DNA of 64,000 bases from Desulfovibrionaceae bacterium (lineage in GTDB: Bacteria > Desulfobacterota > Desulfovibrionia > Desulfovibrionales > Desulfovibrionaceae): positions 23,048 through 87,047 of the forward strand of contig JAVBNL010000023.1 in assembly GCA_031551515.1 (NCBI GenBank). The letters are read 5' to 3'. A program made the position numbers and the translations under genes. This document shows, in pieces, positions 27,876 to 43,685 of the stretch. The notes under the pieces were generated by a model that saw only the letters and a program-made list of their open reading frames with translations, ran no database searches and was not told the origin of the DNA. Position 1 is the stretch's first letter. Each line of letters opens with the position of its first letter.

Positions 27876-28502
27876 TCAGGATTTAGTCAAACGTATGAAA
27901 CTCCAGCTGACGTCGCCGCGCCCGCGCAAATCGCCGCGCACGACCCGCTCGACCAGCGAGAGGCCGCATCGTTTCGCAAGATCCGCCGTCTCTTCCGGCG
28001 TGATGTCGAACATACGCCGCCCTTCCGGCACGGGACCGTGCCGGAGCGAAAGCAACAGCCCTCCGCCATCGGCCAGCAGGCCCGCCACACGGCGCATGGA
28101 AGACGCGCGCTCATCTTCCGTCAGGTGCATCCACACGGCCTGAATCAAGATGAAGTCATAGGGCCCGGCGTATGGGCCCCGCAACGCCGTCAAATCGGGC
28201 AGCGCGTCATCCACCCAATCCACGGATACGTCGCTGTGCAATGCCCTTCCCGCGTCCCGCATGGCGTCCGTGGGTTCCACGGCCACCACCGCATGCCCGC
28301 GTTTGGCCAGCGCCGCAGCATCACGGCCGCTGCCCGCGCCGACATCCAGCACCCGGCAGGGGGATGCGGGGAAAAGGCGCAGAAGGGTTCCGAACATCTC
28401 TTCAAAAGGGATGCTTTCGTACTGTTTCACCAGTTTGGCCGCGTCGCGGTCATACCCCGCCGCTGAAGGACAAAACACCATTTGACCCTCCGTGTCTCGC
28501 AC
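27876..28502 (-). CDS. Class I SAM-dependent methyltransferase (small-molecule type)
   Basis: Motif I VLDVGAGSGRDAAALA. There are no DNA-methyltransferase motifs. Confidence 0.8.
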   Translation of the reverse strand: MRDTEGQMVFCPSAAGYDRDAAKLVKQYESIPFEEMFGTLLRLFPASPCRVLDVGAGSGRDAAALAKRGHAVVAVEPTDAMRDAGRALHSDVSVDWVDDALPDLTALRGPYAGPYDFILIQAVWMHLTEDERASSMRRVAGLLADGGGLLLSLRHGPVPEGRRMFDITPEETADLAKRCGLSLVERVVRGDLRGRGDVSWSFIRLTKS

Positions 28503-28533
28503 CCGTTTGGAGCCGCCGTTTCTTTCGCGGGCC

Positions 28534-29754
28534 TCAGCCCGCCCATTTGCCGGAAACGGCCGCGTCGATGCAGTGTTTCATGGACCCGAACCAGGTTTGC
28601 AACTTGTTGGAGCCCGGCGCGTAAAAGGCCATTTTGGCCGAGTTGGTGGCCAGCGACTTGAAGCCCAGAGCCTCCGGTATGCTGAGAATGGTGCACAAAT
28701 CCTGGGTTAGCACCGCGCCCGCCTTTTCAATGGCCTGCATGTAGCCAAGCTGCTTGGCCATGCCCTTGACCGCCGTGTTCACGTGAACCCAGCAGGTCAC
28801 GTCTTTGTTGATCTTCTTGCCTTCCAGGTAGGCCGCTATTTCGGCCACCTGGTTCAGGGTCAGATGCGGGCAGCCCAGCGCCACGTAATCCACCACCCGG
28901 TTCTTGTTGCTTGTAAGGCGTTCATAGCCCGCCTGCAACTCTTTGGGCCCCAACTCAACCTCTTGCCAGCCGGGAGCCAGCACGCGTTCACCCAGGGCCA
29001 ACGCGTCGGGCGTCTGCCCCAGCACGTGATACAGGGCCACGCCCCCGCTGGAAGCCAGCGCCGCGCCGAGATAGCAGTGCTCTTCCATGCTCATGCGATG
29101 CAGGCCGTCAAAGGCCGGGTTGTTGGTGCCGATGACGCTGCCCACATAGGCGCCCATGGCCCCGATATCCGCCAGGTCCTTGATGGGCGCGGTCACGCGG
29201 AATTTTATCTGCGCGCGGCGGTTTTCATCCAGGTGAAAGCCGTAGTACGGCGTTTTGCCGATCAACGCGGCGGCGAAAGCGCTGGGGCCGCCTTCGCGGT
29301 TGTCGCGCGCCCCCAGGGCGGAGTTGGTGAAGACCACGGCGGAAGATTCCGCCCAGGCGATATGTTCTCTGAATTGCGGCACAAAGCCGTAGAAATAGGG
29401 AGTACAGGAGGAGACGCCGTAACAGCCCGTGCGCTCATAACCCAGCCCGATGCGCAGCTGCTTGTCGCACCAGTCTTTGGGCAGGCCCAGATCGCGCGAA
29501 CGGTCGACGCCGATAACGTTCAAGGTGGTGGGCACCTTGACCCTGGCCCCGGCGGCGGCCGTTTCTTCTATCCATTCCATGCCCGCGACCCCGTGCGAAC
29601 GCAAAGAGAGGCCCGCCACATGCGCGCTGCGCACGGGAATGAGCTTTTCCGCCCCGTAGATCTTGCCGAGACCCACCAGCATTTCCATAGCCATGCGATA
29701 GGTCGGCCCCTCGGCCCCGTCCAGAATGCGCTTGTCAGCGTCGTCCAGTTTCAT
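28534..29754 (-). CDS. Aconitase X large (catalytic, DUF521) subunit
   Basis: The N-terminus MKLDDADKRILDGAEGPTYRMAMEMLVGLGKIYGAEKLIPVRSAHV is typical of DUF521. Confidence 0.85.
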   Translation of the reverse strand: MKLDDADKRILDGAEGPTYRMAMEMLVGLGKIYGAEKLIPVRSAHVAGLSLRSHGVAGMEWIEETAAAGARVKVPTTLNVIGVDRSRDLGLPKDWCDKQLRIGLGYERTGCYGVSSCTPYFYGFVPQFREHIAWAESSAVVFTNSALGARDNREGGPSAFAAALIGKTPYYGFHLDENRRAQIKFRVTAPIKDLADIGAMGAYVGSVIGTNNPAFDGLHRMSMEEHCYLGAALASSGGVALYHVLGQTPDALALGERVLAPGWQEVELGPKELQAGYERLTSNKNRVVDYVALGCPHLTLNQVAEIAAYLEGKKINKDVTCWVHVNTAVKGMAKQLGYMQAIEKAGAVLTQDLCTILSIPEALGFKSLATNSAKMAFYAPGSNKLQTWFGSMKHCIDAAVSGKWAG

Positions 29755-30170
29755 GAGCGGCCTCCTTCTTCAATGACCACCACTTGCTTGTCCGCGTCCA
29801 CTGTGACGATGTCGCCGTTTTTCAACGCCGTGAAGGGGTCTTCCTGCAGGCTGTCCACCACCGGCAGGCCGCTCATGATGGCTCCGCAGGCGATGATGGT
29901 TTCCGTCACCCTGTTAATGATGGCTTTGGGACCGGTGCCCATTTTCGCCAGTTGATAGACCACGTACGAGCCGCCCGTGCTGCCCTTGCCGTACGGAAAG
30001 ACGAGGATCTTGCCGGTGATGGAAACGCCGTTCAACTCGTGGTTGTGCTCAATGACGGTTCCGGTCTCGCAGTCAAAGCCGAAGTTGAACCCGATGGGCT
30101 GGCTGCACAGCAGCACTTCGCCCGTCGCGCGGCCCGGGCTGATGCCCCGGCAGGAAATGGTCCGTTTCAT
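29751..30170 (-). CDS. Aconitase X small (swivel, DUF126) subunit
   Basis: 139 aa with GRATGEVLLCSQPIGFNFGFD...GKILVFPYGKGSTGGS, and a 4-nt overlap with the large subunit gene. Confidence 0.85.
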   Translation of the reverse strand: MKRTISCRGISPGRATGEVLLCSQPIGFNFGFDCETGTVIEHNHELNGVSITGKILVFPYGKGSTGGSYVVYQLAKMGTGPKAIINRVTETIIACGAIMSGLPVVDSLQEDPFTALKNGDIVTVDADKQVVVIEEGGRS

Positions 30171-30198
30171 CGCTCGCTCCTTGGGTAACGGTAACGCC

Positions 30199-30696
30199 TC
30201 AGCGGCTTTTGATCTTTTCTTTCAGCGCTTCGATAAGCCCGCCCTTTTGCACCAGTTCCAGAATGTGCGCGGGCAGTTTGCTGCACGAATAGGTCGTGTT
30301 CTGCGTTTCGTTGCGGATGGCCCCCGCCGTAAAATCCAGCAGCAGAACGTCGCCCGGCTTGATTTTACCCGCATCGTCGCATTCCACCACGGGCAGCCCC
30401 AGGTTGATGGCGTTGCGGTAAAAAATGCGGGCGAAACTTTTGGCGATGACCGCGCCCAGGCCCAGATGTTTCAGGGCCAGCGGCGCAAGTTCGCGGCTGG
30501 AGCCGGAACCGAAGTTGTCGCCCGCAACAATCATATCACCAGACCGCACGCGGGCCGCGAAACCGGGGTCCACGCTGCTCATGGCGAACTTCGCCCCTTC
30601 TTCGACCGAAAGTTCCATGTACTGCGGGGGCGAGATGATGTCCGTATTGATGTTGTCGCCGAAAACGTGAGCTTTGCCCTTGCGTGTACTTTGCAT
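30199..30696 (-). CDS. Aconitase-family small subunit (LeuD/HacB-like)
   Basis: 165 aa with [14 protein letters not shown]...[10 protein letters not shown]. Confidence 0.85.
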
Positions 30697-30706
30697 GCGC
30701 GCCTCC

Positions 30707-31972
30707 TTACAGCAGCTCTCTGGGGTCGATGATTTCCCCGGCCACGGCGGCCGCGGCCACGCTGAGGGGCGAACCCAGATAGGTGAAGGCCTTTTTGCTG
30801 CCCATGCGCCCCAAAAAGTTGCGGTTGGTGGAAGAGATGCAGACTTCGCCGTCCGCCAGCGCGCCGGAGTGCAGGCCCACGCACACGCCGCAGGTGGGCG
30901 CGAGAATCACCGCGCCCGCTTCAGACAGGGTTTGCAAAATGCCGCTCGCCGCCGCCTTCTCCCAGATGCTTTTGGATGAAGGCGACACCAGCAGCCTGCG
31001 TCCGGCCTTGACTTTTTTGCCCTTCAAAAGCCGCGCCGCCAGCAAGAGGTCCGTATAGCGGCCGCCCGTGCAGGAGCCGATATAGGCCTGGTCGATACGC
31101 ACGCCCTTGCCCAGCTCGCGAATGGAGCTGACGTTGTCCACCTCGTGCGGGCAAGAGACCATAGGTTCCAGCGCGGTGGCGTCAAAGTCCAGCTCCCGGC
31201 AGAAACGCGCGTCCTTGTCGCTGCGCAGGGGCTCGAAATTCGCCGCTTTGCCGCGTTCTTTCAAAAAGGCCTTGGTCGTCGCGTCCGTGTTCATCAGACC
31301 CGCTTTGGCGCCCATTTCAACCGCCATGTTGGCGATGCAGAAGCGTTCGTCCATGCACAGGCCGTCAATGGCGGAACCCACATATTCCACGGTTTTATAG
31401 GTCGCCCCGGCGTGGCCTATGGCGCCGATGGTAGCCAGCGAAATGTCTTTGGCCATAACGCCCGCGGTGAGCGCGCCCCGCCATTCCACGCGAATGGTTT
31501 CAGGCACGCGCAGCCAGATCTGCCCGGTCACCAGAATGCCGACCATCTCGGTGGAGCCGATGCCGCTGGCGAACGCGCCCAGCGCGCCGCCCATGCAGGT
31601 GTGCGAATCGGTGCCCATGACCACGGCCCCCGGCAGCACGTGGCCGTGTTCCGCCATGATCTGGTGGCAGGGGCCCACGAACTCGTAATAGCGGTTCACG
31701 CCGTTTTCCGAGGCCCACTCCCGCGTGAACTTCACGATGGCGGCCTGCGCGGCGTTGGCCGGCGGAGTGTAGTGGTCGGAAATGACCACCACCTTTTCAG
31801 GGTCCCAGACCCTTGCCCCCAGCTCTTTCATGCGGTCGGCTATTTCGACCCGGGGGCCGAGAATGTCGTCCATCATGGCCACATCCACATTGGCCCACAC
31901 GATGTCGCCCGCCTGTACCGACTCTTTGCCCGCCGCGCGGGCGATGATCTTTTCAGACAGCGTTTTGCCCAT
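30707..31972 (-). CDS. Aconitase-family large subunit (LeuC/HacA-like, short archaeal-type)
   Basis: MGKTLSEKIIARAAGK...; Fe-S ligand contexts GTDSHT, GSCTGGR and PTCGVCVG. Confidence 0.85.
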   Translation of the reverse strand: MGKTLSEKIIARAAGKESVQAGDIVWANVDVAMMDDILGPRVEIADRMKELGARVWDPEKVVVISDHYTPPANAAQAAIVKFTREWASENGVNRYYEFVGPCHQIMAEHGHVLPGAVVMGTDSHTCMGGALGAFASGIGSTEMVGILVTGQIWLRVPETIRVEWRGALTAGVMAKDISLATIGAIGHAGATYKTVEYVGSAIDGLCMDERFCIANMAVEMGAKAGLMNTDATTKAFLKERGKAANFEPLRSDKDARFCRELDFDATALEPMVSCPHEVDNVSSIRELGKGVRIDQAYIGSCTGGRYTDLLLAARLLKGKKVKAGRRLLVSPSSKSIWEKAAASGILQTLSEAGAVILAPTCGVCVGLHSGALADGEVCISSTNRNFLGRMGSKKAFTYLGSPLSVAAAAVAGEIIDPRELL

Positions 31973-32041
31973 ATCGTACCTTCCTTTTCCGCTTGGACAG
32001 TTTACGCCGCGTGACCGCAAGAGTCACGCGGCGCTAAAGCC

Positions 32042-33406
32042 TTACGCGGCGCCGATTTCCTCAAGGGATTTGCCCTTGGTTTCAATCCCCAGGAAGTACA
32101 CCAGGGCCACGGCTATCCAGAAAAATACGGCCATGGTGATATAAATGCCGTAGTACATCTGGTTGGCCATGAAATATCCGAAGACCACGGGGCTTAGAGC
32201 GGAACTCACGCGCCCCGCGCCGGTGGACCAGCAGGTGGCCGTCGCGCGCACCTTTGAGGGATACAGCTCGGCCGTCCAGACCACGGTGCCCGCGACGCCC
32301 TGCTCATACAGATACGAAAGCAGGCAGGCTCCCCAGACCAGATAGGCGGGGTCGTTCAGCTTGCCGAAAACCAGGGCCGCAACGCCGCCCAGGCCGAAGC
32401 CCACGTAAAACAGCTGCTTTCTGCCGAATTTTTCAATGGTGTAAAAGGCGGTCAAACGGCCCAGAATGGCGGCGAGCGCCACATACAACGTATAGGTGAA
32501 GGTCTTGGCCATGCTCAGGCCGTAAACCATCGACAAAATGGAGGGCAGCCAGAGCACGAAGCCGTAATAGCCGAAATAGGCGAAGAAATAGTAGCCCGCC
32601 GTCAGGATGAAGCGCCGCAGGTACTCCTTTTGAAACAGCACGAAGACGGAGACTTTTTCGGCGGTGGCGTCCGATTGCAAGCCCACCACGTCCTCTTCTT
32701 TCGCCCCCAGCTTTTTCAGCACGGCGGCGGCCTCTTCCGTGCGCCCCTGCGCCGCCAGCCAACGGGGAGATTCAGGCACCCTGAAGGCCACGATGATGGC
32801 CAAAAGGGCCGGGGTCACGCCGATATAGAAGAGCACGCGCCAGCCGTATTCCGTCACCAGCAGCAAAGAGGCCACGGCCGCCACAAGCAGGCCGAAAGGC
32901 CAGAGCACGGTCAGCACGGCGACGAAGCGCCCCCGGTACCCGGCGGAGACGTATTCGGAAACAAGCGCGGTGTTGATGGGTATCATGCCGCCCAGGCACA
33001 TGCCGGTGACGAAGCGGATGATGCCGAATTCCATGACGTCGCGGGCGAACGCGGTCATGCCGGTCAGCAGACTGAAGCCCACAATGGTGCCGATGAACCC
33101 GACCTTGCGGCCGAATTTGTCGGAAACCGGACCCCAGATGACCGCGCCCAGAAACATGCCCCAAATGCCCGCCGAGGTCAGCATGCCGTTGACCACGGGC
33201 GTGATCGACCACTCTTTGATGATCGAAGGCATGGCGTAGGAGACGATATACGTGTCGAAAGAGTCGAACATGAAGCCCAAAGCCGCCGTGATCACTATGA
33301 AGTAGTGGATGCTTGAAAGCGAAAGTTTTTCCACCACGCTGCTGACCGTGGGTCTTGCCGCGCCCGGGCCGCCAAGGGTGTTAATGCCGTTCATCGTGCT
33401 CTGCAT
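32042..33406 (-). CDS. MFS transporter (metabolite:H+ symporter / sugar-porter-like)
   Basis: RBS AAGGAGAG and 12 predicted TM segments. GPVSDKFGRKV and PESPRWL motifs are present. Confidence 0.9.
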   Translation of the reverse strand: MQSTMNGINTLGGPGAARPTVSSVVEKLSLSSIHYFIVITAALGFMFDSFDTYIVSYAMPSIIKEWSITPVVNGMLTSAGIWGMFLGAVIWGPVSDKFGRKVGFIGTIVGFSLLTGMTAFARDVMEFGIIRFVTGMCLGGMIPINTALVSEYVSAGYRGRFVAVLTVLWPFGLLVAAVASLLLVTEYGWRVLFYIGVTPALLAIIVAFRVPESPRWLAAQGRTEEAAAVLKKLGAKEEDVVGLQSDATAEKVSVFVLFQKEYLRRFILTAGYYFFAYFGYYGFVLWLPSILSMVYGLSMAKTFTYTLYVALAAILGRLTAFYTIEKFGRKQLFYVGFGLGGVAALVFGKLNDPAYLVWGACLLSYLYEQGVAGTVVWTAELYPSKVRATATCWSTGAGRVSSALSPVVFGYFMANQMYYGIYITMAVFFWIAVALVYFLGIETKGKSLEEIGAA

Positions 33407-33433
33407 AGTCTGCTCTCCTTGTTGTGGTCGCGG

Positions 33434-34192
33434 TTACACGGGATAGGTGTCGTGTTCGAAGGCTTTGGGGTCATGGCCGGGAAGGATGAAGTCGCAAATC
33501 TTCTCCATCTTCGCGTAGGTGGCGTAATAGTCGTCCAGGCGGCAGTGAATGCCGGAAGGAATGTGCTTGTACATCGCGTTGCCTTCCCAGTTTTCAAACA
33601 GAGCGCAGCAGTCGCTGGCGACCAGGCCGCGCCCCTTGGCGGTATTGACCAGAACGCCCTGAAAACCGGGCGTGTGCCCGGGCAGGGTCACAAGGTCGAT
33701 GCCGGGGCACAGCGAAAAATCGCCGTCCACCGCGACGATCTGGCTGTATGCTTTGAACCAGCGCGGCGTCAGGCCCACCTGGTGCGATTCGTAATACACC
33801 CAGTGCGCGGGCAGCGGGTCCACGGCGTATTCCATCTCGCGTTTCTGCACGTAGATTTTGGCGTTGGGAAACAGGTCGTTGTTAAAACAGTGGTCCCAGT
33901 GCAGGTGCGTGTTGACCACCACGTCCACGTCTTTGGCTTCAACCCCGAACCGCTTCAGCCCTTCAAGCGGGTGCATGCCGGGGGAACGGAGCAGACCGTG
34001 GTGATGCTTGGCGGCCCAATCTTCGTCGGAACAGCCGGTATCGACCAGAACCACCCGATCGGGCCCCTTGATCAGGTACATGATGATCGGGGCCACAAGC
34101 TTGGTGCCCGGATCTACCTGGTAGGTAAAATTCGATTTTTCGGCCGCTTTGAACACGCCTGTCTTGATGGGGTGGATCGTATACTCTCGCAT
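33434..34192 (-). CDS. MBL-fold hydrolase, N-acyl-homoserine-lactonase-like
   Basis: RBS AAAGGAG and metal motif NTHLHWDH (HxHxDH), about 250 aa. Confidence 0.85.
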   Translation of the reverse strand: MREYTIHPIKTGVFKAAEKSNFTYQVDPGTKLVAPIIMYLIKGPDRVVLVDTGCSDEDWAAKHHHGLLRSPGMHPLEGLKRFGVEAKDVDVVVNTHLHWDHCFNNDLFPNAKIYVQKREMEYAVDPLPAHWVYYESHQVGLTPRWFKAYSQIVAVDGDFSLCPGIDLVTLPGHTPGFQGVLVNTAKGRGLVASDCCALFENWEGNAMYKHIPSGIHCRLDDYYATYAKMEKICDFILPGHDPKAFEHDTYPV

Positions 34193-34329
34193 GGTCGCTC
34201 CTTTTATATCGTCTGTTCCGCGCGCCGCCGCGCCTGAAAAAGGGTGTCGAGCAAGATGCCCGCTGTGAAACCGCAGGCGGCGTCCCGTTTCGGGACCGTT
34301 CCGAGTGGGGGATAAAGCGGCGCTAGCCG

Positions 34330-35484
34330 CTAATAAACCGATTTACGCACATATGCATACCCATCCATGATTTTACGCGCCGTGCGGTATACGCCGATGC
34401 GTTTCATGACGGTTTCGCCGTTCTTCGTTTCCGCTTCCGCCTCAACGGGTATGATCCCGCCGGGGTGGCCTATCTGCACGGTCATTCTGCTCTTCGCCTC
34501 TTCGCGCAGCACGTCCCAGGCCACGGTGCCGGGTATGCGCACGGCCGCGCCCGTGCAGACCGTGCCGGTAACCGGGTAGGTCTTGTGCATCTTGAGCATA
34601 AACAAGAGGCGGGAGACCAGATCCACTTCCTTCGCCTTCACCGTGCCGCCGCTGATGGTCGTGTAATCAGCGGGTTCGCTGACGATGGCGAAAAACGGCG
34701 TGTAGGGGCTTTTGGTGGCCGCGTCTTCGGGTTTGTCGACCAGGCCGCACCAGACGGCCGCCTGCCCCCGGATTTTTTCGATCAGCGCCATGAGGTTCTT
34801 GTCCGCTTCGATGGCGGCCGGGCTTTCCGTGCCTTTCAGGCCCAGCGAACGCGCGTGGATGAAGACCAGCGGGTTGCCCGCGTCCACCAGGGATATGGTG
34901 TAGTCTTTGCCATCGACGCTGATGACGTCTTTGACGTTGCCCGTGGGCAACAGCTTGCCCGTGGTCGGGCCGGTGACGTCCGACCAGTCCAGGGTAATCC
35001 GCGCGCCGGTGCCTGGGCAACCGTCAATGGCGTAGTCGCCGCAGACGGAAGCTTTGCCGTTTTTGACCGGCACTTCGGCGATCAGGATATGATTGCTGTT
35101 GGTCAGGTGAATGCGCACGGTGGTAACGGGTTCCACCGGTTCCACCAGGCCTTCGTCAATGGCGAAAGGGCCCACGGCGGCGGAGATGTTGCCGCAGTTG
35201 CCCTGGTAATCGATGAATTCCGTCTCGAAGCTGACCTGGCCGAAGGTGTAATCCACATCCGCATCCGGCCGGGAAGCGGGTGAGATGATGGCCAGCTTGC
35301 TGGTCAGCACGTCCGCGCCGCCGAGGCCGTCTATCTGGCGCACGTCGGGGCTGCCGTATATGGCGCGAATGACCGCGTCACGTTTTTGCGGGTCTTTGGG
35401 CAGTTCGTTCTTCATGATGAAAACGCCCTTGCTGGTGCCGCCCCGCACGATGGAACACCGTACCATTTCCATTTCAGGATGCAT
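34330..35484 (-). CDS. PrpF-family isomerase (2-methylaconitate / oxalomesaconate / methylitaconate isomerase family)
   Basis: RBS GGGAGGAAG precedes ATG 35484. The N-terminus is MVRCSIVRGGTSKGVFI. Confidence 0.85.
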   Translation of the reverse strand: MHPEMEMVRCSIVRGGTSKGVFIMKNELPKDPQKRDAVIRAIYGSPDVRQIDGLGGADVLTSKLAIISPASRPDADVDYTFGQVSFETEFIDYQGNCGNISAAVGPFAIDEGLVEPVEPVTTVRIHLTNSNHILIAEVPVKNGKASVCGDYAIDGCPGTGARITLDWSDVTGPTTGKLLPTGNVKDVISVDGKDYTISLVDAGNPLVFIHARSLGLKGTESPAAIEADKNLMALIEKIRGQAAVWCGLVDKPEDAATKSPYTPFFAIVSEPADYTTISGGTVKAKEVDLVSRLLFMLKMHKTYPVTGTVCTGAAVRIPGTVAWDVLREEAKSRMTVQIGHPGGIIPVEAEAETKNGETVMKRIGVYRTARKIMDGYAYVRKSVY

Positions 35485-35500: not shown

Positions 35501-36496
35501 TTAGCGCGCTTGAGAAACCGCGACGGCAAGGGCGACCGTGGCCCCCACCATGGGGTTGTTGCCCATACCCAGAAAACCCATCATTTCCACGTGAGCGGGC
35601 ACCGAAGAAGACCCCGCGAACTGCGCGTCACAGTACATGCGGCCCACAGTGTCGGTCAAACCATACGAGGCCGGGCCCGCGCCGTTGTCGTCCGGGTGCA
35701 CGGTGCGGCCCGTGCCGCCGCCGGAAGCCACGGCGAAAAAGTTCCGTCCGTTGTCGCCGCACCATTTTTTATAGGTGCCCGCCACGGGGTGCTGAAAGCG
35801 GGTCATGTTGGTGGAGTTGCCGGTGATGCAGACGTCCACTTTTTCACTGACCATAACGGCCACGCCTTCCGGCACGTCGTCCGCGCCATAGCAGCGCACC
35901 GCCGCCCTGGGCCCGGCAGAGAAAGCCCGCTCCTCTTTGATGGCCAGTGTTTCGGCGGCGTAGTCGTATTCTGTGCGCACGTAGGTGAAGCCGTTGATGC
36001 GCGAGATGATGTACGCCGCGTCTTTGCCCAGGCCGTTCAAGATGACCCGCAGGGGGGTTTTGCGCACTTTGTTGGCCGATTGCGCGATGCCGATGGCCCC
36101 TTCGGCCGCGGCGAACGATTCATGCCCGGCCAGAAAGGCAAAACAGCCCGTCTCTTCGTGCAGCAGCCGGGCGGCGAGGCGCCCGTGCCCCAGGCCCACT
36201 TTGCGGTGATCGGCCACGGAACCGGGCAGGCAAAACGCCTGCAAGGCTTCGCCTATAGCTTCCGCAATGGCCGGGGCTTCTTTTTCGCCCCGCGCGACGG
36301 CGACGGCCGCCCCCAAGGTGTAGGCCCAGCAAGCGTCGTCAAAACAGATGGCCTGAATGCCCCGCACCAGGGCGAAAGGGTCCACGCCCCGGGCCTGAAC
36401 CCGCGCGCGGGCGTCTTCCAGCGAAGCTATGCCGTTCGCCTGCAAACAGGCCGTTATCGCGGGCATGCGCAGTTCTTTGTTTTCAAATGCGGTCAT
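35501..36496 (-). CDS. GGGtGRT-family protein (function unknown)
   Basis: Contains the eponymous ASGGGTGRTVHPDDNG motif. RBS GGAGG is present. Confidence 0.8.
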   Translation of the reverse strand: MTAFENKELRMPAITACLQANGIASLEDARARVQARGVDPFALVRGIQAICFDDACWAYTLGAAVAVARGEKEAPAIAEAIGEALQAFCLPGSVADHRKVGLGHGRLAARLLHEETGCFAFLAGHESFAAAEGAIGIAQSANKVRKTPLRVILNGLGKDAAYIISRINGFTYVRTEYDYAAETLAIKEERAFSAGPRAAVRCYGADDVPEGVAVMVSEKVDVCITGNSTNMTRFQHPVAGTYKKWCGDNGRNFFAVASGGGTGRTVHPDDNGAGPASYGLTDTVGRMYCDAQFAGSSSVPAHVEMMGFLGMGNNPMVGATVALAVAVSQAR

Positions 36497-36510
36497 GGTC
36501 GCCTCCGGCC

Positions 36511-37188
36511 CTATTCCCTACGGGGGTCAATGGTTCTGACGGCTTCGCCGAAGCGGCCGTAAACGCCCTTTGCCGCATCGTACGCCTGGTCGGGGCTTTG
36601 CCCCGCCGCGATCTGGTTCATCATCTTGCCCAAGTTGACGAATTCGTACCCGATGATTTCGCTGTTTTCGTCCAGCGCCAGGCGGGTCACATAGCCTTCC
36701 GTCATTTCAAGATAGCGCGGCCCGTTGGCCACAGTGCCGTACGAGGTGCCCACCTGGCTGCGGCAGCTGGAGCCGAGATCTTCCATGGCCGCGCCGATAG
36801 GCAGGCCGCCGTCGGAATACGAACTTTGCGTGCGGCCGTACGCGATGGTGGTGAACAGCGATTTCATGGCGCTGTTGGTGGCGTCGCAGACAAGGTCGGT
36901 GTTAAGAGCCTCAAGCAGCGTTTTGCCCGGCAGAATCTCTGCGGCCATGGCCGCGGAATGACTCATGCCGGAACAGCCGATATGCTCAATGAGCGCTTCG
37001 TGCACGATGCCGTCTTTGACGTTCAGCGTCAGTTTGCAGGTGCCCATTTGCGGCGCGCACGTACCACAGCCGTGGGCGAAACCGGATATATCCGCGACTT
37101 GCTTTACGCGCGTCCATTTACCTTCCTGAGGAATGGGCGACGGGCCGTGATTGGGCCCCTGCCGGACGATACAGAGGGTTTCAGACAT
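36511..37188 (-). CDS. NifU/IscU-N-terminal-like Cys-containing protein
   Basis: FAHGCGTCAPQMGTC...HIGCSGMSHSAAMAAEILPGKTLLEA resembles the IscU scaffold fold. It is the first gene of the operon. Confidence 0.7.
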   Translation of the reverse strand: MSETLCIVRQGPNHGPSPIPQEGKWTRVKQVADISGFAHGCGTCAPQMGTCKLTLNVKDGIVHEALIEHIGCSGMSHSAAMAAEILPGKTLLEALNTDLVCDATNSAMKSLFTTIAYGRTQSSYSDGGLPIGAAMEDLGSSCRSQVGTSYGTVANGPRYLEMTEGYVTRLALDENSEIIGYEFVNLGKMMNQIAAGQSPDQAYDAAKGVYGRFGEAVRTIDPRRE

Positions 37189-37244: not shown

Positions 37245-37260
37245 AACAAGAAGCATGCCA
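37245..37260 (-). promoter_or_regulatory. Candidate sigma-54 (-24/-12) promoter for the nine-gene operon
   Basis: The minus strand reads TGGCATGcttcTTGTT against the consensus TGGCACG-N4-TTGCW. The spacing is correct with one mismatch in the -12 GC. It lies about 57 nt upstream of ATG 37188. Confidence 0.45.
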
Positions 37261-37481
37261 AGTGCCCGGGCAGCCCCTATCCACGCCTTTCGGCCGCAGC
37301 CGCCTCGGCGCGCGGAACACGGCCCACCCCTTTTGGTGTTTCATTTTCATCCGGCTTGTTGCCGGGCAGAAATAAAAACAGCGATTTTGCAACGGCGCGC
37401 GCAAGAATTTTTGCAGTGAACTTGGTGGAATAGCAGCATAATATGTGATTTTTTCAGTAATTAAACAACAATTTCCATTTA

Positions 37482-37550: not shown

Positions 37551-39458
37551 ATGAACGCCCCGGTCCGCATCGCGCTTATCGCTACCTACCCCGACATCGC
37601 CCAGCTGTTTCGCGACCTGGCGCAGGACAGGCCGGATATCGTGGCGCGGGATGTTTACGCCTCTTTTGACGACGCCATTAAGACCGCAAAAAAGCTGGAA
37701 CGCGAAACAGACGTCATTCTCAGCCGGGGGGGCACGGGCGAGTTCATACGCCGTAGCGTGGGCATACCCGTGGTGCAGTTGGCCATCACCCCGTTCGACG
37801 TGGTGCTGGCCATGCAAAAGCTGCCGCCGGGGGTTACGGAATTCGCTCTTTCCCACTACAACTCGCCCATTTACGGGCTGGAAGAAATACAGAAAATCTA
37901 CGGCGTCACCATTCACGAATATACGTTTGAAACACTGCGCGACATAGAAGAGAGCGTTGTCGACATTCAGCGGCGCGGCATCAGAAACGTGCTGGGCGGC
38001 CACGTCATAACCAACTTGCTGCGCGACCACGGCATATTCGGGGTGACCCTCAGCGCGGGGCTTGATACCGTAAACCGGGCGCTGAACGAAGCCATGTCCA
38101 TCGTTTTTGAAGCGCGCAAAGAACGCAACAGAACGGCCAGGCTGGCCGCCGCCTTCAACTCCATCACCACCGGGCTGGTGCTGACGGACGACAAAAACAA
38201 GGTACTTGCCTGCAACCCCGTGGCAAGCAAGCTTTTTGGCCGGCAACACCCCGTGGGCAGCAGCTTCACGGACGACGCGGCCGACCCCATGCTGCGCGAG
38301 GCGCTGCGAACCCGCACGGCCCGCACCAACTATATCTGCAACATCCGCGACACCCTCATCAACGCCGGGCACATGCCCGTGTATCTGGATAACAATTTCA
38401 TCGGCTTCGTGCACACCTTTGAAGACGTCACGAAAATCCAGACGCTTGAGCAGGCCATACGCAAACAGATGCACGACAAGGGTTTTGTGGCGCGGTACCG
38501 CTTTTCCGACATTTTCACCACGGACCCCACCCTGGAAATGCTCAAACGCACGGCCCAATCATACGCGCGCAGCAAATCGACCGTGCTGATAGAGGGCGAA
38601 TCGGGCACGGGCAAGGAACTTTTCGCCCAAAGCCTGCACAACGCCAGCCCCAGGGCGGATATGCCCTTTGTGGCGGTCAACTGCGCGGCCATACCGGCCA
38701 ATCTGCTGGAAAGCGAACTCTTCGGATACGAAGCCGGGGCCTTTACCGGCGCGAAAAAAGAAGGCAAACCCGGCCTTTTTGAAATAGCCCACAACGGCAC
38801 CATTTTTCTGGACGAAATCGGGGATTTGCCCAGGGAGTTTCAAGCGCGGCTGCTGCGCGTGCTGCAAGAAAAAGAGTTCATGCGCGTGGGCGGCGGCAAG
38901 GTCATGCCCGTGGATGTCAGGGTCATCAGCGCCACCAACAAGAACCTGCGCGAACTGGCCGCCAAAGGGGAATTCAGAGAGGACCTCTTTTACCGGCTGG
39001 GCGTATTCACCCTGACCCTGCCGCCTTTGCGGGAACGGGCTTGCGACATAGACCCCCTGTGCCGCAAATTTTTGGCCGACCAGGGACTGACGCAGGATAC
39101 GGGGATCGTGCGCCGGTTGCTGCCCCGGCTGCTGGCGCATAGCTGGCCCGGCAACATACGCGAACTGCGGAATATTTCCGAACGCATGGCCCACCTCGTC
39201 AATACCGGCGGCGACTATTCGCCGGAAGAGCTCGACCTGACTCTGGGCCTCGGCTCGCCCAAACACAACGGTGATTTTTACGCGCGCATCGACCTGGAAC
39301 AGCAGCGCGGCCTGAAGAGCATTGTGGATACAGTTGAAAAGCAGGTCATCGGCCACTTGCTGCGGCTGCACGACAACAAATACGCGGATGTGGCCAAACG
39401 CCTGGGCATAGGCCGCACCACGCTCTGGCGCAAACACAACCACGCGGACGCGCCCTGA
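37551..39458 (+). CDS. Sigma-54-dependent transcriptional activator with PrpR-type N-terminal sensor domain, PAS, AAA+ and Fis-type HTH
   Basis: RBS AAGGAG. PrpR_N-like block VILSRGGTGEFIRRSVGIPVVQLAITPFDVV. AAA+ motif GESGTGKE and sigma-54 contact motif GAFTGA. C-terminal HTH VAKRLGIGRTTLWRK. Confidence 0.9.
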   Translation: MNAPVRIALIATYPDIAQLFRDLAQDRPDIVARDVYASFDDAIKTAKKLERETDVILSRGGTGEFIRRSVGIPVVQLAITPFDVVLAMQKLPPGVTEFALSHYNSPIYGLEEIQKIYGVTIHEYTFETLRDIEESVVDIQRRGIRNVLGGHVITNLLRDHGIFGVTLSAGLDTVNRALNEAMSIVFEARKERNRTARLAAAFNSITTGLVLTDDKNKVLACNPVASKLFGRQHPVGSSFTDDAADPMLREALRTRTARTNYICNIRDTLINAGHMPVYLDNNFIGFVHTFEDVTKIQTLEQAIRKQMHDKGFVARYRFSDIFTTDPTLEMLKRTAQSYARSKSTVLIEGESGTGKELFAQSLHNASPRADMPFVAVNCAAIPANLLESELFGYEAGAFTGAKKEGKPGLFEIAHNGTIFLDEIGDLPREFQARLLRVLQEKEFMRVGGGKVMPVDVRVISATNKNLRELAAKGEFREDLFYRLGVFTLTLPPLRERACDIDPLCRKFLADQGLTQDTGIVRRLLPRLLAHSWPGNIRELRNISERMAHLVNTGGDYSPEELDLTLGLGSPKHNGDFYARIDLEQQRGLKSIVDTVEKQVIGHLLRLHDNKYADVAKRLGIGRTTLWRKHNHADAP

Positions 39459-40982: not shown

Positions 40983-41597
40983 TTACTTAATGAAGCCGAC
41001 CTGCTTGCTGATCTCGGCAATGGCCTTCTCTTTTTTCTTGTTGTAGACGACCTTGTTTTCTTCAAACAAATTGCGGCCCTTGGTGTCGATGGAAACGATC
41101 AGCGGGCCGAACTCTTTCACCCGGCAGACCCACAGGGTTTCGGGCATGCCCAGGTCGCGCCACTGGGCGTCTTCGATCTCTTCAACCTGGGTCGCGGCCA
41201 CAACGCCGCAGCCCGCGGGAAAAACCAGGTGCAGGGCTTTGTTCCTCACGCAGCCTTCCACCGTGCCCGCGCCCATGCCGCCTTTGCCGACCACCAGTTT
41301 GACGCCGGTCTGGGCGATGAATTCCTTTTCAAACTTTTCCATGCGCATGCTGGTGGTGGGGCCGATGGAGACCATCTCGAACTTGTCGCCCCCGATGGGC
41401 CGCACGATGGGGCCGGCGTGGAAAATGGCCAGGCCCTTCAGGTCCACGGGCAGGGGGCGTTTTTCTTCGATCAGGCGCCGGTGCGCCACGTCGCGGCACG
41501 TTATCAGGTACCCGTTCAGATAGACGATGTCGCCCACGTTGATATCGGCAATATCCGCGTCCTTGACGGGCGTGGTCAGAATCTTCTTCGCGCTCAT
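40983..41597 (-). CDS. Fe-S hydro-lyase beta subunit (class I fumarate hydratase / L(+)-tartrate dehydratase family)
   Basis: [21 protein letters not shown]...GAGPIV...VVGKGGMG, with a 4-nt overlap with the alpha subunit gene. Confidence 0.85.
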
Positions 41598-42499
41598 ATG
41601 ACGGCCCCCTTGTGGGATTTGATGACGTGCTTCAGGTCTTTGTCAAACACGATGTGGCCCCGGCGGTGGGACCAGCAGCCGACGTTCACGGCCACCCCGA
41701 TGGTGGAGGGGTGCCGGGCGGTGTTTTCAATATGCACGCCCATGACCGAATTCACGCCGGACATGCCCTGGGGACCCAGGCCGATGCTGTTGATGCCGTC
41801 TTCAAGCAGTTTTTCCATGCCCGCCGCGCGCGCGTTGGCGTTATGCGTGCCGATGGGCCGCATCAGCGCTTTTTTGGACAGCAGCGCCGCCGTTTCCACG
41901 GATGTGGCCACGCCCACGCCCACCAGCAGCGGAGGACAGGCGTTGAGGCCGTAGGTAGTCATGATGTCCAGCACAAACTCGGTCACGCCTTCGTACCCGG
42001 CGCCGGGCATCAGCACCATGGCCTTGCCGGGCAGGGTACAGCCGCCGCCAGCCATGTAGGTGTAAATTTCAACGTCATCGCGGCCGGGCACGATTTCCCA
42101 GAACAACGTGGGCGTGCCCGTGCCGATGTTTTTGCCGGTGTTGAATTCGTCAAAAGTTTCCACGCTGTTGTGGCGCAGGGGGGCTTTGACCGTGGCGTCA
42201 AGCACGGCTTCGGTCAGGATAGCTTCCAGGTTGGCCAGCAGGGGGAAATTCGAGCCGCACTTGACCCAGAATTGCAGCACCCCGGTATCCTGGCAACAGG
42301 GGCGGTTCAGCTCCATGGCCAGTCGCTGGTTCTCGGCCATGGTGTCGTAAATGGTTTTGGCCAGCGCACTGGTCTCTTCGGCCCGCAGGTCGGCCAGCTT
42401 TTTTTCAACGTCGTCAGGCAGTTTCTTGCCGACCAGGGCGACGAACTTGCTCATCACGCCGGTCATCTCGCGGACATGCTGTTCACTTGCCATCTGCAA
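41594..42499 (-). CDS. Fe-S hydro-lyase alpha subunit (class I fumarate hydratase / L(+)-tartrate dehydratase family)
   Basis: [16 protein letters not shown] and [11 protein letters not shown] are motifs typical of the alpha-type catalytic domain. Confidence 0.85.
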
Positions 42500-42695
42500 C
42501 CCTCCAATAGATTCGGCTGTTGTCTGAAAAAATAGACGGGACGCTGCGGACGAAGGCCGCTGTTATCCGTTCTATAGGATCAAGCTCGCCATTCGTAAAA
42601 TGAATTGATGTGATGGATGGAATAACTACCGGCTATGCCAATGCATAATCCGAGCAGGTAAACTATTTCAAGAGAAACTCTAGGGTACTGTTTTT

Positions 42696-43592
42696 CTAAG
42701 CTTGAGGAAGCAATTCTGCCATAAAGGTTCTTGCCGCGCGGGAAAGCTGAATGCCCTTGGCCGTGACCACGCAGACCGTGCGCGGGGGAACGGGTTCGGG
42801 CGTTTTCACCACAAAGGCCCTGCCCGCCGCTATGCTTTCTTCGGCAAAGGCGCTGATGACCAGGCCCACCCCCATGCCGCGCTCCACACAGGGAATGATC
42901 AGCACCGTGGTTGACAGCTCGATCATGGGGCTGAATTCAAGCCCCCGCTCGTGGAAAAAAGCCCCCTGAAAGCGCCGCGTGGCCGTGCCCTGCCCCAGCG
43001 CGATAAGGGGCAGGCCGAGCAGTTCGTCCCAGGGCACCACCCTGCCCTGCAAATGCGCATATTGCGGCCCGGCGATAAAGGCGTCGCGAACCTCGCCTAT
43101 CTCGTGCGCGGTGCAGGCGCCGTCCATTTCCGGGGGCAGCGGCTTCATGACCACGGCCAGGTCAAGGCGTTCTTTGCGGATGTCTTCCAGCAAATGAAAG
43201 GCCTGCGCCGCCCGGGTAGTAATTTTTATCTGCGGGTGCCGCTCGCGGAACGAAGCCAGGCCGGGCAGCAAAAACCGCTGCAGGATCAGGTCGGAAGAGC
43301 CGATGCGCACTTCCCCGCGTTCCAGGTCCAGCAGGCTTTGCAGCTTGTTCTCGCCGGCGGCCAGCGTTTCGCAGGCGCGTTCGGCATAGGGGAAAAGCTC
43401 CTTGCCTTCCGGCGTCAGGGTCATGCCTTTGGGCAGACGGATAAAGAGAGCGCAGCCGAGCAGTTCTTCCATCTGCCGGATGCGCTTGGTCAGGGCGGGC
43501 TGCGAGATGAACAGCGCCTGCGCCGCGTGGGTCAGGTTGCCCGCGCGCGCCACATGGTAAAAGGCCTTGTAATATTCCAGGTCGATTTTCAT
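42696..43592 (-). CDS. LysR-family transcriptional regulator
   Basis: YYKAFYHVARAGNLTHAAQALFISQPALTKRIRQMEELLG plus a substrate-binding domain. Confidence 0.85.
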   Translation of the reverse strand: MKIDLEYYKAFYHVARAGNLTHAAQALFISQPALTKRIRQMEELLGCALFIRLPKGMTLTPEGKELFPYAERACETLAAGENKLQSLLDLERGEVRIGSSDLILQRFLLPGLASFRERHPQIKITTRAAQAFHLLEDIRKERLDLAVVMKPLPPEMDGACTAHEIGEVRDAFIAGPQYAHLQGRVVPWDELLGLPLIALGQGTATRRFQGAFFHERGLEFSPMIELSTTVLIIPCVERGMGVGLVISAFAEESIAAGRAFVVKTPEPVPPRTVCVVTAKGIQLSRAARTFMAELLPQA

Positions 43593-43685
43593 GGGTGCCG
43601 CCCGCAAGAGTCCGTTCCGGCGAAAATGGATGCGCCGCCTTTCGGTCTATGCCAGGAGGGATAATTTCGCAACAGGCAGGCCCGG

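What the first reader, a model, noticed from the sequence alone, without database searches (positions are those of the whole stretch)
35501..37188. GGGtGRT-family protein paired with a NifU/IscU-like Cys protein as leading genes of a catabolic operon
Seen: a 331-aa protein contains the literal motif ASGGGTGRTVHPDDNG. It lies 14 nt downstream of a 225-aa protein with IscU-like Cys contexts (HGCGTCAPQMGTC; IGCSGMSH). Both genes have good Shine-Dalgarno sites and come first after the putative sigma-54 promoter.

Established: to my knowledge the GGGtGRT family has no assigned function.

Inference: two Fe-S dehydratase systems lie downstream, so there are two options. The pair could be a dedicated Fe-S cluster donor or repair module for them. 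Alternatively it could be a novel two-component enzyme acting on the imported substrate. In either case the genomic context gives a testable handle on an orphan family.
Basis: partly seen in the sequence, partly recalled or inferred. Interest (0 to 1): 0.7.

Follow-up and report, generated by a model that had tools for sequence, protein, structure and literature searches.

The report
Orphan iron-sulfur protein pair in catabolic island
Two adjacent genes of unknown function, found as an inseparable and extremely conserved pair in anaerobic bacteria, here belong to a distinct subtype built into a switchable gene island for breaking down organic acids, which gives a concrete way to find out what the pair does.

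Summary
On the minus strand, a 225-aa distant IscU/NifU-like protein (36511-37188) lies 14 nt upstream of a 331-aa full-length PF14057 GGGtGRT protein (35501-36496). Both follow a sigma-54 promoter and sit opposite a divergent PrpR-type activator gene. Downstream are a PrpF-family isomerase, an MBL hydrolase, an MFS transporter, a LeuCD-like hydratase and a two-subunit AcnX.

In 160 diverse loci from at least eight phyla, the two genes are adjacent in 146 of 147 evaluable cases. Nothing else recurs beside them, and 0 of 160 have PrpF, aconitase or AcnX neighbours. The window's pair belongs to a separate clade (75-85% identity) with fixed signature residues next to the Cys ligands and the GGGTGRT loop. 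In that clade, 10 of 11 evaluable loci carry the same catabolic genes in shuffled order, across phyla.

No function is published as of 2025-26. GGGtGRT has no relative in the PDB by sequence or fold. The partner fails the IscU membership tests.

My best reading (about 0.4) is an obligate two-subunit Fe-S enzyme whose catabolic paralogue performs one step on an unsaturated tricarboxylate-type substrate. The main rival (about 0.3) is a cluster donor or reactivase for the neighbouring dehydratases.

The parts
37246..37260 (-). Sigma-54-type -24/-12 promoter element, TGGCATGCTTCTTGT, 58 nt upstream of the NifU-like start codon.
   Evidence: Pattern match in the window. The same TGGCAY-N5-TTGT element lies upstream of the NifU-like gene in L081, L083, L084 and L085.
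36511..37188 (-). 225-aa partner protein. Its N-terminal part (about residues 38-112) is remotely IscU/NifU-like. Three Cys are invariant (C44, C72, C101). The C-terminal beta-rich half (about residues 120-225) has no known relatives.
   Evidence: The AlphaFold2 model is poor (pLDDT 53.6). Homologues are 60-69% identical across phyla.
35501..36496 (-). 331-aa GGGtGRT protein (PF14057) with the signature ASGGGTGRTVHPDDNG at residues 257-272. Among close homologues C118, C202, H104, H125, H267 and H302 are invariant. Only C202 is also kept in the most divergent member.
   Evidence: The AlphaFold2 model has pLDDT 81.9 and pTM 0.84: a helical N-domain plus a Rossmann-like alpha/beta domain, with the signature loop (260-299) at low confidence. 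No fold match has E <= 1e-3.
34330..35484 (-). PrpF-family isomerase. The closest models are 4-oxalomesaconate tautomerase and PrpF, both below their equivalog cutoffs. The probable ATG is at 35484, 16 nt after the GGGtGRT stop and behind a GGGAGGA Shine-Dalgarno sequence, so the gene is co-transcribed.
   Evidence: It is directly adjacent to the pair in 7 loci of the clade, counting the window.
33434..34192 (-). Metallo-beta-lactamase-fold hydrolase (AiiA-like lactonase family, far below equivalog cutoffs).
   Evidence: It recurs in L081, L087 and L172.
32042..33406 (-). MFS transporter of the aromatic-acid/H+ symporter subfamily type.
   Evidence: It is 81% identical to the one in the Negativicutes locus L087.
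30707..32020 (-). Aconitase / 3-isopropylmalate dehydratase / homoaconitase-family large subunit. The probable start is ATG 31972.
   Evidence: NF001614, 534 bits against a cutoff of 385.
30199..30696 (-). LeuD/DmdB-family small subunit.
   Evidence: TIGR02087, 176.7 bits against a cutoff of 109.
29751..30170 (-). AcnX small (swivel, DUF126) subunit.
28534..29754 (-). AcnX large subunit (aconitase X).
27876..28502 (-). SAM-dependent methyltransferase. A methyltransferase also occurs in the islands of L089 and L170.
37551..39458 (+). Divergently transcribed sigma-54 enhancer-binding protein with domains PrpR_N, PAS, AAA+ and HTH. It is PrpR-like but below the PrpR equivalog cutoff.
   Evidence: A homologue is present beside the pair or island in 10 of 12 clade loci.

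Best explanation
The two genes encode an obligate two-subunit iron-sulfur protein.

Subunit roles (inferred): the 225-aa subunit uses a diverged IscU-type fold and three invariant cysteines (C44, C72, C101) to hold an Fe-S cluster. The 331-aa GGGtGRT subunit contributes a Rossmann-like domain and the invariant glycine-rich loop (GGGTGRT ... QFAGSSSVPAHVEM ... GMGNNPMVGA). That loop forms the ligand-binding half of a composite active site, possibly together with C202.

Family role: in most anaerobes the pair is a free-standing, very abundant, iron-dependent housekeeping enzyme acting on a central metabolite.

Role here: the window carries a paralogous subtype with retuned residues next to the cluster ligands and the signature loop. 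It is switched on by a PrpR-type sigma-54 activator. It is proposed to catalyse one step, most plausibly a hydro-lyase-type or isomerisation-type step, on an imported unsaturated or lactonised tricarboxylate. It would do so immediately before or alongside the PrpF-family isomerase and the LeuCD-like hydratase.

Shown: strict pairing, the distinct subclade, sigma-54 control, the conserved island, and the Cys and motif invariance.
Inferred: cluster binding, heterodimer formation, catalytic role and type of reaction.
For: 1. Obligate pairing. The NifU-like gene lies directly upstream on the same strand in 146 of 147 evaluable diverse loci from at least eight phyla. No other gene recurs (at most 12 of 160, explained by lineage synteny). 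When the order is broken (L086), both genes stay in the island.

2. Three invariant Cys sit in an IscU-like context. Cys2 aligns with IscU Cys2.

3. Very strong constraint. 183 of 331 and 115 of 225 columns are at least 95% identical over 74 loci.

4. The signature loop is invariant yet modelled at pLDDT about 35 in the monomer. This is as expected for a site that orders only with a partner or cofactor.

5. Iron dependence and abundance.
- B. thetaiotaomicron BT0173-74 falls 11- to 12.8-fold under iron depletion, together with other iron-cofactor enzymes (PMC10434189).
- The protein is iron-responsive in C. pasteurianum (PMC5395762).
- It is highly expressed in vivo in gut isolates (PMC11204068).
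- It is detected in rumen metaproteomes (PMC7035244).

6. Subclade evidence.
- The window's pair falls in a clade apart from the 74 diverse loci placed in the tree.
- That clade has fixed switches at otherwise conserved positions (at least 95% identical): NifU-like T38A, Q48M, T69H, I104T; GGGtGRT L266V, N270D, M271N, M280L.
- The switches are enriched near the motif (p = 0.007) and near the Cys residues (p = 0.057).
- The full signature was confirmed in three held-out loci.

7. Conserved island. 10 of 11 evaluable clade loci carry aconitase-superfamily genes and 8 of 11 carry PrpF, with shuffled order and across Desulfovibrionaceae and Negativicutes. This compares with 0 of 160 elsewhere. Fisher p = 1.2e-11 was computed on the first 8 clade loci.

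8. No desulfurase, chaperone or other Fe-S biogenesis gene is ever adjacent, and IscU hallmarks are missing.
Against: - No cofactor, complex or activity has been measured for any member.
- The NifU-like model is unreliable (pLDDT 53.6), and no multimer prediction could be run.
- GGGtGRT has no fold or sequence relative that would indicate a type of chemistry.
- Cross-phylum identity of about 70% is also what hub proteins such as scaffolds show.
- The islands always contain enzymes with labile Fe-S clusters, which fits a maturation or repair role equally well.
- B. thetaiotaomicron transposon mutants grow normally on glucose minimal medium (bioRxiv 10.64898/2026.04.10.717545), so the housekeeping form is not an essential central enzyme under those conditions.
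- I could not show that a genome carrying the island subtype also has a housekeeping copy.
Confidence: 0.4

Rival explanations
1. Dedicated Fe-S cluster donor or reactivase. The IscU-like subunit assembles or carries a cluster (or Fe), and the GGGtGRT subunit, possibly nucleotide-dependent through its glycine-rich loop, delivers it to dehydratases with labile [4Fe-4S] clusters or rebuilds those clusters. The free-standing form serves all such enzymes in anaerobes. The island subtype serves the co-encoded LeuCD-like and AcnX enzymes (and the Oxidored_FMN reductase).
For: - Remote but consistent IscU-fold similarity with three invariant Cys.
- 10 of 11 evaluable island loci encode aconitase-superfamily enzymes, and 3 also encode an Fe-S flavoenzyme next to the pair.
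- Hub-like sequence conservation.
- Expression alongside rubrerythrins in gut anaerobes (PMC11204068).
- The mutant is dispensable in anaerobic glucose medium, as a repair factor would be.
Against: - There is no cysteine desulfurase, chaperone or A-type carrier nearby in any of 160 loci.
- The IscU hallmarks are absent: Cys1 position, the Asp after it, and LPPVK.
- Expression is strongly repressed, not induced, when iron is scarce.
- Abundance is high enough for detection in metaproteomes, which is unusual for a maturation factor.
- Subclade-specific changes hug the putative active site.
- The closest neighbour is most often PrpF, which is not an Fe-S enzyme.
Confidence: 0.3
2. Redox or electron-transfer module. 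The pair is an abundant Fe-S electron carrier or reductase subunit that feeds or accepts electrons for a reductive step in the island, for example with the Oxidored_FMN enoate-reductase-like enzyme. It would serve general anaerobic redox metabolism elsewhere.
For: - Iron-repressed like ferredoxin-dependent systems, while flavodoxin is induced.
- Oxidored_FMN is directly adjacent to the pair in L086, L087 and L172.
- The GGGtGRT model has a Rossmann-like domain.
Against: - The window's own island has no Oxidored_FMN gene, yet it keeps the pair.
- Only three Cys are invariant in the cluster subunit, which points to an open coordination site rather than a pure electron-transfer centre.
- No dinucleotide-binding family matches.
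Confidence: 0.1
3. Housekeeping pair that merely happens to lie next to a catabolic operon. The adjacency would carry no functional meaning.
For: In 160 diverse loci the pair is free-standing with unrelated neighbours. One member of the window's clade (L088, Peptococcaceae) is also free-standing.
Against: - Gaps of 14 nt and 16 nt, with no terminator, link the pair to the PrpF-family gene.
- A sigma-54 promoter in front of the pair is conserved in 5 of 5 loci.
- The same gene set travels with the pair in 10 of 11 evaluable clade loci despite reshuffling and across phyla.
- A fixed residue signature predicts the context in held-out loci.
Confidence: 0.05

Closest known systems
GGGtGRT protein family (Pfam PF14057) with its 'NifU' neighbour, e.g. 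Bacteroides thetaiotaomicron BT0173-BT0174
   Same: - Full-length family match, the literal motif, the same length, and the same upstream 225-230-aa partner.
- All invariant residues are kept.
- The pair is recorded in the literature as iron-repressed, abundant and of unknown function.
   Different: - The window's pair belongs to a separate clade, only about 70% identical to the free-standing form.
- It has fixed substitutions at otherwise conserved positions (at least 95% identical) (AMHTKSD / DDFMWVDNL).
- It is under a sigma-54 promoter and a PrpR-type activator.
- It is embedded in a catabolic island.
IscU / NifU N-terminal domain / SufU Fe-S scaffolds
   Same: - Remote profile similarity over about 70 residues to more than 20 solved IscU-family chains.
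- The GC(S/G)G second-Cys motif aligns.
- There are three conserved Cys in all.
   Different: - Scores are about 170 bits below the curated cutoffs, and there is no Pfam hit.
- The first IscU Cys position is Met or Gln, with an invariant Cys four residues upstream instead.
- The Asp of CGD and the LPPVK chaperone motif are absent.
- There is an extra C-terminal domain of about 105 residues.
- No desulfurase neighbour exists, and the obligate partner is GGGtGRT.
AcnD-PrpF-PrpR route of the 2-methylcitrate cycle, and the Mii-DmdAB steps of nicotinate fermentation (from established knowledge)
   Same: An aconitase-superfamily hydro-lyase is paired with a PrpF-family isomerase. Control is by a PrpR_N-type sigma-54 activator. 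ICL-family or HMGL-like lyases occur in related islands.
   Different: - The hydratase is LeuC/HacA-type, not AcnD (73 bits against a cutoff of 1420).
- PrpF and PrpR are below their equivalog cutoffs.
- AcnX, an MBL hydrolase and the GGGtGRT pair have no counterpart in those pathways.
Three-Cys [4Fe-4S] hydro-lyases with a substrate-binding unique iron (aconitase, class I fumarase, Fe-S L-serine dehydratase) - functional analogy only
   Same: Three invariant Cys, iron dependence, occurrence in anaerobes, and co-location with hydro-lyase chemistry on carboxylic acids.
   Different: There is no detectable sequence or profile relation to the window's own aconitase-family and AcnX subunits. The fold is different.

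Membership tests
PF14057 GGGtGRT family | Full-length match to the family HMM above the gathering score | tested here: met
   570.7 bits against a cutoff of 27. Residues 4-330 match profile positions 1-327 of 327.
PF14057 GGGtGRT family | Literal GGGTGRT signature, and a length of about 320-340 aa | tested here: met
   G259-T265 is invariant in a 50-sequence alignment, and the protein is 331 aa.
PF14057 GGGtGRT family | Upstream 'NifU-like' partner gene of about 225 aa on the same strand | tested here: met
   The gap in the window is 14 nt. The partner is present in 146 of 147 evaluable diverse loci.
IscU / NifU-N Fe-S scaffold | Match to curated IscU/NifU models above cutoff | tested here: not met
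   TIGR03419 scores 21.8 bits against a cutoff of 187.9. TIGR01999 scores 16.3 bits against 192.4. There is no Pfam hit.
IscU / NifU-N Fe-S scaffold | Three cluster-ligand Cys at the canonical positions | tested here: inconclusive
   Cys2 aligns (C72). The IscU Cys1 column is M48 (Q in free-standing forms), with invariant C44 four residues upstream. C101 may correspond to Cys3, but HMMER does not align it.
IscU / NifU-N Fe-S scaffold | Conserved Asp two residues after Cys1 (CGD), and the LPPVK chaperone-binding motif | tested here: not met
   The aligned column is T50. No LPPVK-like motif occurs anywhere in the 225-aa sequence or in alignment A2.
IscU / NifU-N Fe-S scaffold | Genomic association with a cysteine desulfurase or Fe-S biogenesis genes | tested here: not met
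   No recurrent neighbour of any kind was found in 160 diverse loci. Only the top 10 neighbour clusters were inspected.
IscU / NifU-N Fe-S scaffold | Binds and transfers a labile Fe-S cluster | not testable with these tools
   This needs anaerobic purification and spectroscopy.
Sigma-54-dependent operon | -24 GG / -12 GC-type element at a proper distance, with a cognate enhancer-binding protein | tested here: met
   TGGCATGCTTCTTGT lies at 37260-37246 (-). The element is conserved in 5 of 5 loci where the pair leads the operon. The divergent gene encodes a PrpR_N-PAS-AAA+-HTH activator.
AcnD/PrpF 2-methylcitrate pathway (prp operon) | AcnD-type dehydratase and equivalog-level PrpF and PrpR | tested here: not met
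   AcnD model: 73 bits against a cutoff of 1420. PrpF: 298 against 441. PrpR: 401 against 499.
Aconitase superfamily (as a possible remote origin of the pair) | Profile similarity to aconitase, LeuCD or AcnX subunits | tested here: not met
   hhalign probabilities were 0.6% or lower in all four comparisons.

The most novel reading that the evidence does not exclude
The GGGtGRT/NifU-like pair would be a previously unrecognised class of two-subunit Fe-S enzyme with a fold not represented in the PDB. It would be abundant and near-universal in anaerobes. The island-borne paralogue found here would reveal its type of chemistry: a transformation of an unsaturated or lactonised di- or tricarboxylate that feeds a PrpF-type isomerase and a LeuCD-type hydratase. 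That would let the housekeeping reaction be deduced by analogy.
Probability: 0.35. Interest if true: 0.85.

Novelty: new variant of a known kind. Interest (0 to 1): 0.66.

Why it matters
GGGtGRT and its partner are among the most conserved proteins of anaerobic bacteria, at about 70% identity between phyla. They are also among the most abundant in gut and rumen communities. Yet papers as late as 2025 call their role unclear.

A free-standing two-gene operon offers no clue from its neighbours. This window shows a sequence-distinct subtype that is hard-wired into a sigma-54-inducible, horizontally mobile organic-acid catabolic island. The invariant core of that island is the pair plus a PrpF-family isomerase plus a LeuCD-like hydratase.

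This turns an orphan family into a tractable problem:
- There is an inducer to look for.
- There is a defined set of partner enzymes.
- There is a residue signature that separates the two subtypes.
- There are clear genetic and biochemical tests that distinguish 'enzyme' from 'Fe-S reactivase'.

Tried and rejected
1. Sequence and profile searches of the PDB with GGGtGRT gave only noise (guanylyl cyclase, E 0.05-0.17).

2. Foldseek of a good model (pTM 0.84) against the PDB found nothing at E <= 1e-3. There were only partial Rossmann-like overlaps (UDP-GlcNAc 2-epimerase, PFK; TM < 0.3).

3. The partner's model was too poor (pLDDT 53.6) to search.

4. A profile search of 1.84 billion representative proteins looked for remote relatives or informative fusions.
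- The best 150 of 2140 hits all matched the same family strongly (at least 231 bits). Many cover only part of the profile.
- The five long 'fusions' that carry a second domain are chimeric: a truncated GGGtGRT joined to Creatinase_N_2, ABC_tran, Tex, SusD-like or GGDEF. The other four long hits show no second domain.
- Two 'divergent' members are frameshifted.
- Only P0260 (50% identity) is a real outlier.

5. Neighbour clustering in 160 diverse loci found no functional partner.

6. Rfam scans of 20 diverse loci and of the window found no riboswitch or leader upstream of the pair.

7. Profile comparison with the window's own aconitase-family and AcnX subunits showed no relation.

It added to the pairing statistics but not to the clade.

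9. An exact look-up of the window's own protein found no contig on record, so the organism was not identified. The nearest named relatives are Desulfovibrionaceae MAGs.

10. Literature searches for GGGtGRT, PF14057, BT0173/74 and AcnX+PrpF found no functional characterisation.

11. The FtsZ/tubulin-like reading of GGGTG(R/T) is only a recollection of motif resemblance. Foldseek did not return FtsZ or tubulin, so I do not rely on it.
Full report
**1. Observation**

The two ORFs are real and lie on the minus strand.
- 36511-37188 encodes 225 aa containing HGCGTCAPQMGTC and IGCSGMSH.
- 35501-36496 encodes 331 aa containing ASGGGTGRTVHPDDNG.
- They are 14 nt apart, and each has a readable Shine-Dalgarno sequence.

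The larger protein is a full-length member of Pfam PF14057 'GGGtGRT' (570.7 bits). The smaller protein has no Pfam domain. It reaches NifU/IscU models only weakly, at 16-22 bits against cutoffs near 190. As a profile it matches more than 20 solved IscU/NifU/SufU chains at E 2e-4 to 7e-2 over about 70 residues.

The next gene is a PrpF-family isomerase. Its probable start is 16 nt after the GGGtGRT stop, behind GGGAGGA. The same strand then carries:
- an AiiA-like MBL hydrolase;
- an aromatic-acid-type MFS transporter;
- a LeuC/HacA-like large subunit and a LeuD/DmdB-like small subunit;
- a two-subunit AcnX;
- a methyltransferase.

No convincing terminator interrupts this row. A PrpR_N-PAS-AAA+-HTH sigma-54 activator is transcribed divergently. 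A -24/-12 element, TGGCATGCTTCTTGT, lies 58 nt upstream of the first ATG.

**2. The pair across bacteria**

More than 8000 protein clusters match each protein, and the best 120 are at least 66-70% identical. I fetched 80 loci from species-representative genomes and 80 from metagenomes. The genome records are titled as Desulfobacterota, Bacteroidota, Bacillota, Fibrobacterota, Holophaga, Myxococcales, Spirochaetes, Succinivibrionaceae, Eggerthellaceae and one Methanomicrobiales MAG. The metagenome loci carry no taxon names.

- In 146 of 147 loci with enough upstream sequence, the NifU-like gene sits directly upstream on the same strand. The exception (L134) keeps only the last ~50 codons.
- Nothing else recurs. 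The commonest neighbours occur in at most 12 of 160 loci and reflect lineage synteny, for example SmpB, MetH and SusC/D.
- None of the 160 loci has a PrpF, aconitase-family or AcnX gene within about 10 kb.
- Constraint is extreme. Over the 74 of the 80 genome loci with near-full-length hits for both genes, 183 of 331 GGGtGRT columns and 115 of 225 partner columns are at least 95% identical.
- C44, C72 and C101 of the partner are invariant.
- In GGGtGRT, C118 and C202 and several His residues are invariant among close homologues. Only C202 survives in the one real outlier, P0260.

**3. The window's pair belongs to a distinct, context-linked clade**

The closest relatives (75-85% identity) form one clade apart from the 74 diverse loci included in the tree. 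I examined twelve distinct clade loci, counting the window.

Loci where the pair is followed directly by PrpF and LeuCD-like genes:
- L084 and L085 have a PrpR_N activator gene transcribed divergently from NifU-like-GGGtGRT-PrpF-aconitase L+S.
- L171 has no PrpR_N activator. IclR- and RpiR-type regulator genes lie upstream instead.
- L087 (a Negativicutes MAG), L170 and L172 add AcnX S+L, an MBL hydrolase, an MFS or CitMHS transporter or a Tct system, CoA_transf_3, an HMGL-like lyase, Oxidored_FMN and a methyltransferase, in varying combinations.

Loci with a rearranged or partial island:
- L089 has the same set in a different order.
- L081 (Desulfovibrionaceae) has the activator gene divergent from the pair, followed by DctPQM, an ICL-family lyase, AcnX, an MBL hydrolase, an SSF transporter and an aconitase gene.
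- L086 splits the two genes but keeps both in the island.
- L083 ends just after the pair.
- L088 (Peptococcaceae) is free-standing.

Totals:
- 10 of 11 evaluable clade loci carry an aconitase-superfamily gene.
- 8 of 11 carry PrpF.
- 10 of 12 carry the PrpR_N activator.
- This compares with 0 of 160, 0 of 160 and 3 of 160 elsewhere. Fisher p = 1.2e-11 was computed on the first 8 clade loci.

The sigma-54 element TGGCAY-N5-TTGT is present upstream of the NifU-like gene in all five loci where the pair leads the operon. It is absent where the pair is internal or free-standing.

Island genes are 60-88% identical between the window and the Negativicutes locus. The island therefore moves horizontally as a unit.

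**4. A residue signature**

At columns that are at least 95% conserved in free-standing pairs, the clade has fixed switches.
- Partner: T38A, Q48M, T69H, I104T, R109K, A123S, E126D.
- GGGtGRT: E53D, N54D, Y192F, P231M, E245W, L266V, N270D, M271N, M280L.

The switches are enriched near the signature loop (5 of 9 within 15 residues, permutation p = 0.007). They are marginally enriched near the invariant Cys residues (5 of 7 within 8 residues, p = 0.057). Position 48 is the column that aligns with the first Cys ligand of IscU.

Three loci fetched after the signature was derived (L170-L172) carry it exactly. The free-standing clade member L088 departs at partner positions 69 and 104, next to C72 and C101, and at GGGtGRT position 53.

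My inference is that the Cys site of one protein and the GGGTGRT loop of the other form one functional site, and that this site has been retuned in the island subtype.

**5. Structure and remote homology**

The AlphaFold2 model of GGGtGRT is confident overall (pLDDT 81.9, pTM 0.84). It shows a helical N-domain followed by a Rossmann-like alpha/beta domain. The invariant 260-299 stretch is at pLDDT about 35-50.

Foldseek finds no PDB structure at E <= 1e-3. It gives only partial Rossmann overlaps with TM below 0.3. The partner alone does not fold confidently (pLDDT 53.6), which is consistent with an obligate complex.

Other searches gave nothing:
- no relation to the neighbouring aconitase-family or AcnX subunits;
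- no informative fusions;
- no riboswitch.

**6. Literature**

No paper in the held library assigns a function. [quoted passage not shown] A 2025 paper calls its role unclear (PMC12078515).

Observations bearing on function:
- B. thetaiotaomicron BT0173-74 is the same pair. It falls 11- to 12.8-fold on iron depletion, together with other iron-cofactor enzymes (PMC10434189).
- Transposon insertions in that pair give normal growth on glucose and a 2-fold rise in a Cur-controlled protein (bioRxiv 10.64898/2026.04.10.717545).
- The protein is iron-responsive in C. pasteurianum (PMC5395762).
- It is detected in rumen metaproteomes (PMC7035244).

**7. Interpretation**

Shown:
- an obligate gene pair;
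- three invariant Cys in a diverged IscU-like context;
- a distinct subtype under sigma-54 and PrpR-type control, inside a mobile organic-acid island whose core is the pair plus PrpF plus a LeuCD-like hydratase.

Inferred: the pair forms a heteromeric Fe-S protein with a composite site.

I favour a catalytic role (confidence about 0.4) for four reasons.
- The protein is abundant and iron-repressed, like Fe-S enzymes.
- It lacks every accessory hallmark of scaffold systems.
- Its subtype-specific changes sit at the putative active site.
- It behaves in the island like a pathway enzyme: it is always retained, it is usually next to PrpF, and it travels with the island.

The analogy, from established knowledge, is an Fe-S hydro-lyase upstream of a PrpF-type isomerase and a LeuCD-type hydratase, as in the Hmd, Mii and DmdAB sequence of nicotinate fermentation or in AcnD-PrpF.

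It is supported by the IscU-like fold, hub-like conservation and the constant presence of aconitase-superfamily genes. A redox-carrier role (about 0.1) and chance adjacency (about 0.05) are less likely.

**8. Novelty**

The family and its pairing are catalogued, so this is not a new family. What is new:
- the island-borne, signature-bearing, sigma-54-controlled subtype;
- the demonstration that the context is conserved with reshuffling across phyla;
- the failure of the IscU membership tests;
- the absence of any fold relative.

I file it as a new variant of a known, functionally orphan kind. There is a substantial chance (about 0.35) that it represents a categorically new enzyme class.

Noticed in passing
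window 27876-35484 (-), plus L081, L084-L087, L089, L170-L172: The catabolic island itself is uncharacterised. It combines a PrpF-family isomerase (closest model is 4-oxalomesaconate tautomerase, below cutoff), a LeuCD/DmdAB-like hydratase, two-subunit AcnX, an AiiA-like MBL hydrolase and varied carboxylate transporters. Related loci add CoA_transf_3, HMGL-like or ICL-family lyases, Oxidored_FMN, RraA-like and Amidohydro_2 genes. This suggests an anaerobic route for an unsaturated or lactonised tricarboxylate of the aconitate, oxalomesaconate/pyrone-dicarboxylate or itaconate/citraconate type. Genes are 60-88% identical between the window and a Negativicutes MAG, so the island is horizontally mobile.
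   Followed up: partly
window 43686-45494 (-): A 602-aa ORF carries a GFLGSGKTTF P-loop and an EGCVCC motif. From my own knowledge this is the signature of COG0523/CobW-type metallochaperone GTPases. Here it follows a long N-terminal extension. No family search was run on it.
   Followed up: no
window 40983-43607 (-): A two-subunit class I (Fe-S) fumarate-hydratase-family enzyme (Fumerase + Fumerase_C) lies next to a LysR regulator. It is a separate unit upstream of the sigma-54 activator and is not part of the pair's operon.
   Followed up: partly
window 20341-22455 (-): A UPF0261 protein and a PEP_hydrolase-like protein form a pair next to an ABC transporter (ATPase plus two permeases) and a GntR/FCD regulator. 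This is another conserved pair of unclear function.
   Followed up: no
window 26913-27842 (-): A 309-aa ORF at the distal end of the island has no Pfam or NCBIfam match.
   Followed up: no
window 60334-60348 (-): This is the second and only other exact TGGCAY-N5-TTGY match in the window (TGGCATCGCGTTTGT). It may be another sigma-54 promoter.
   Followed up: no
L081 123-8448: In a Desulfovibrionaceae MAG, the PrpR_N activator of the pair lies beside an alternative-nitrogenase-type cluster (NifH-like, two P-II, Oxidored_nitro, AnfG_VnfG).
   Followed up: no
L134 about 9700-9990: This is the only one of 147 evaluable loci without an intact partner gene. Only the last ~50 codons of the NifU-like gene remain upstream of an intact GGGtGRT gene. 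The cause may be a rearrangement or an assembly chimera.
   Followed up: partly
P0260 (protein): This is the only truly divergent full-length GGGtGRT member seen (50% identity). It keeps GGGTGRT, ITGNST, AGHESFAAAEGAIG, QFAGSSSVPAHVEM and C202, but lacks C118 and C89. That narrows the candidate cluster or catalytic Cys in this subunit to C202.
   Followed up: partly
intergenic regions of L081, L083, L084, L085 (and approximately window 37330-37350): A shared 9-mer, TGTTTCAAA/TTTGAAACA, occurs in four of the five activator-pair intergenic regions, and the window has a near-match (TGTTTCATT). It may be the activator's binding site.
   Followed up: no
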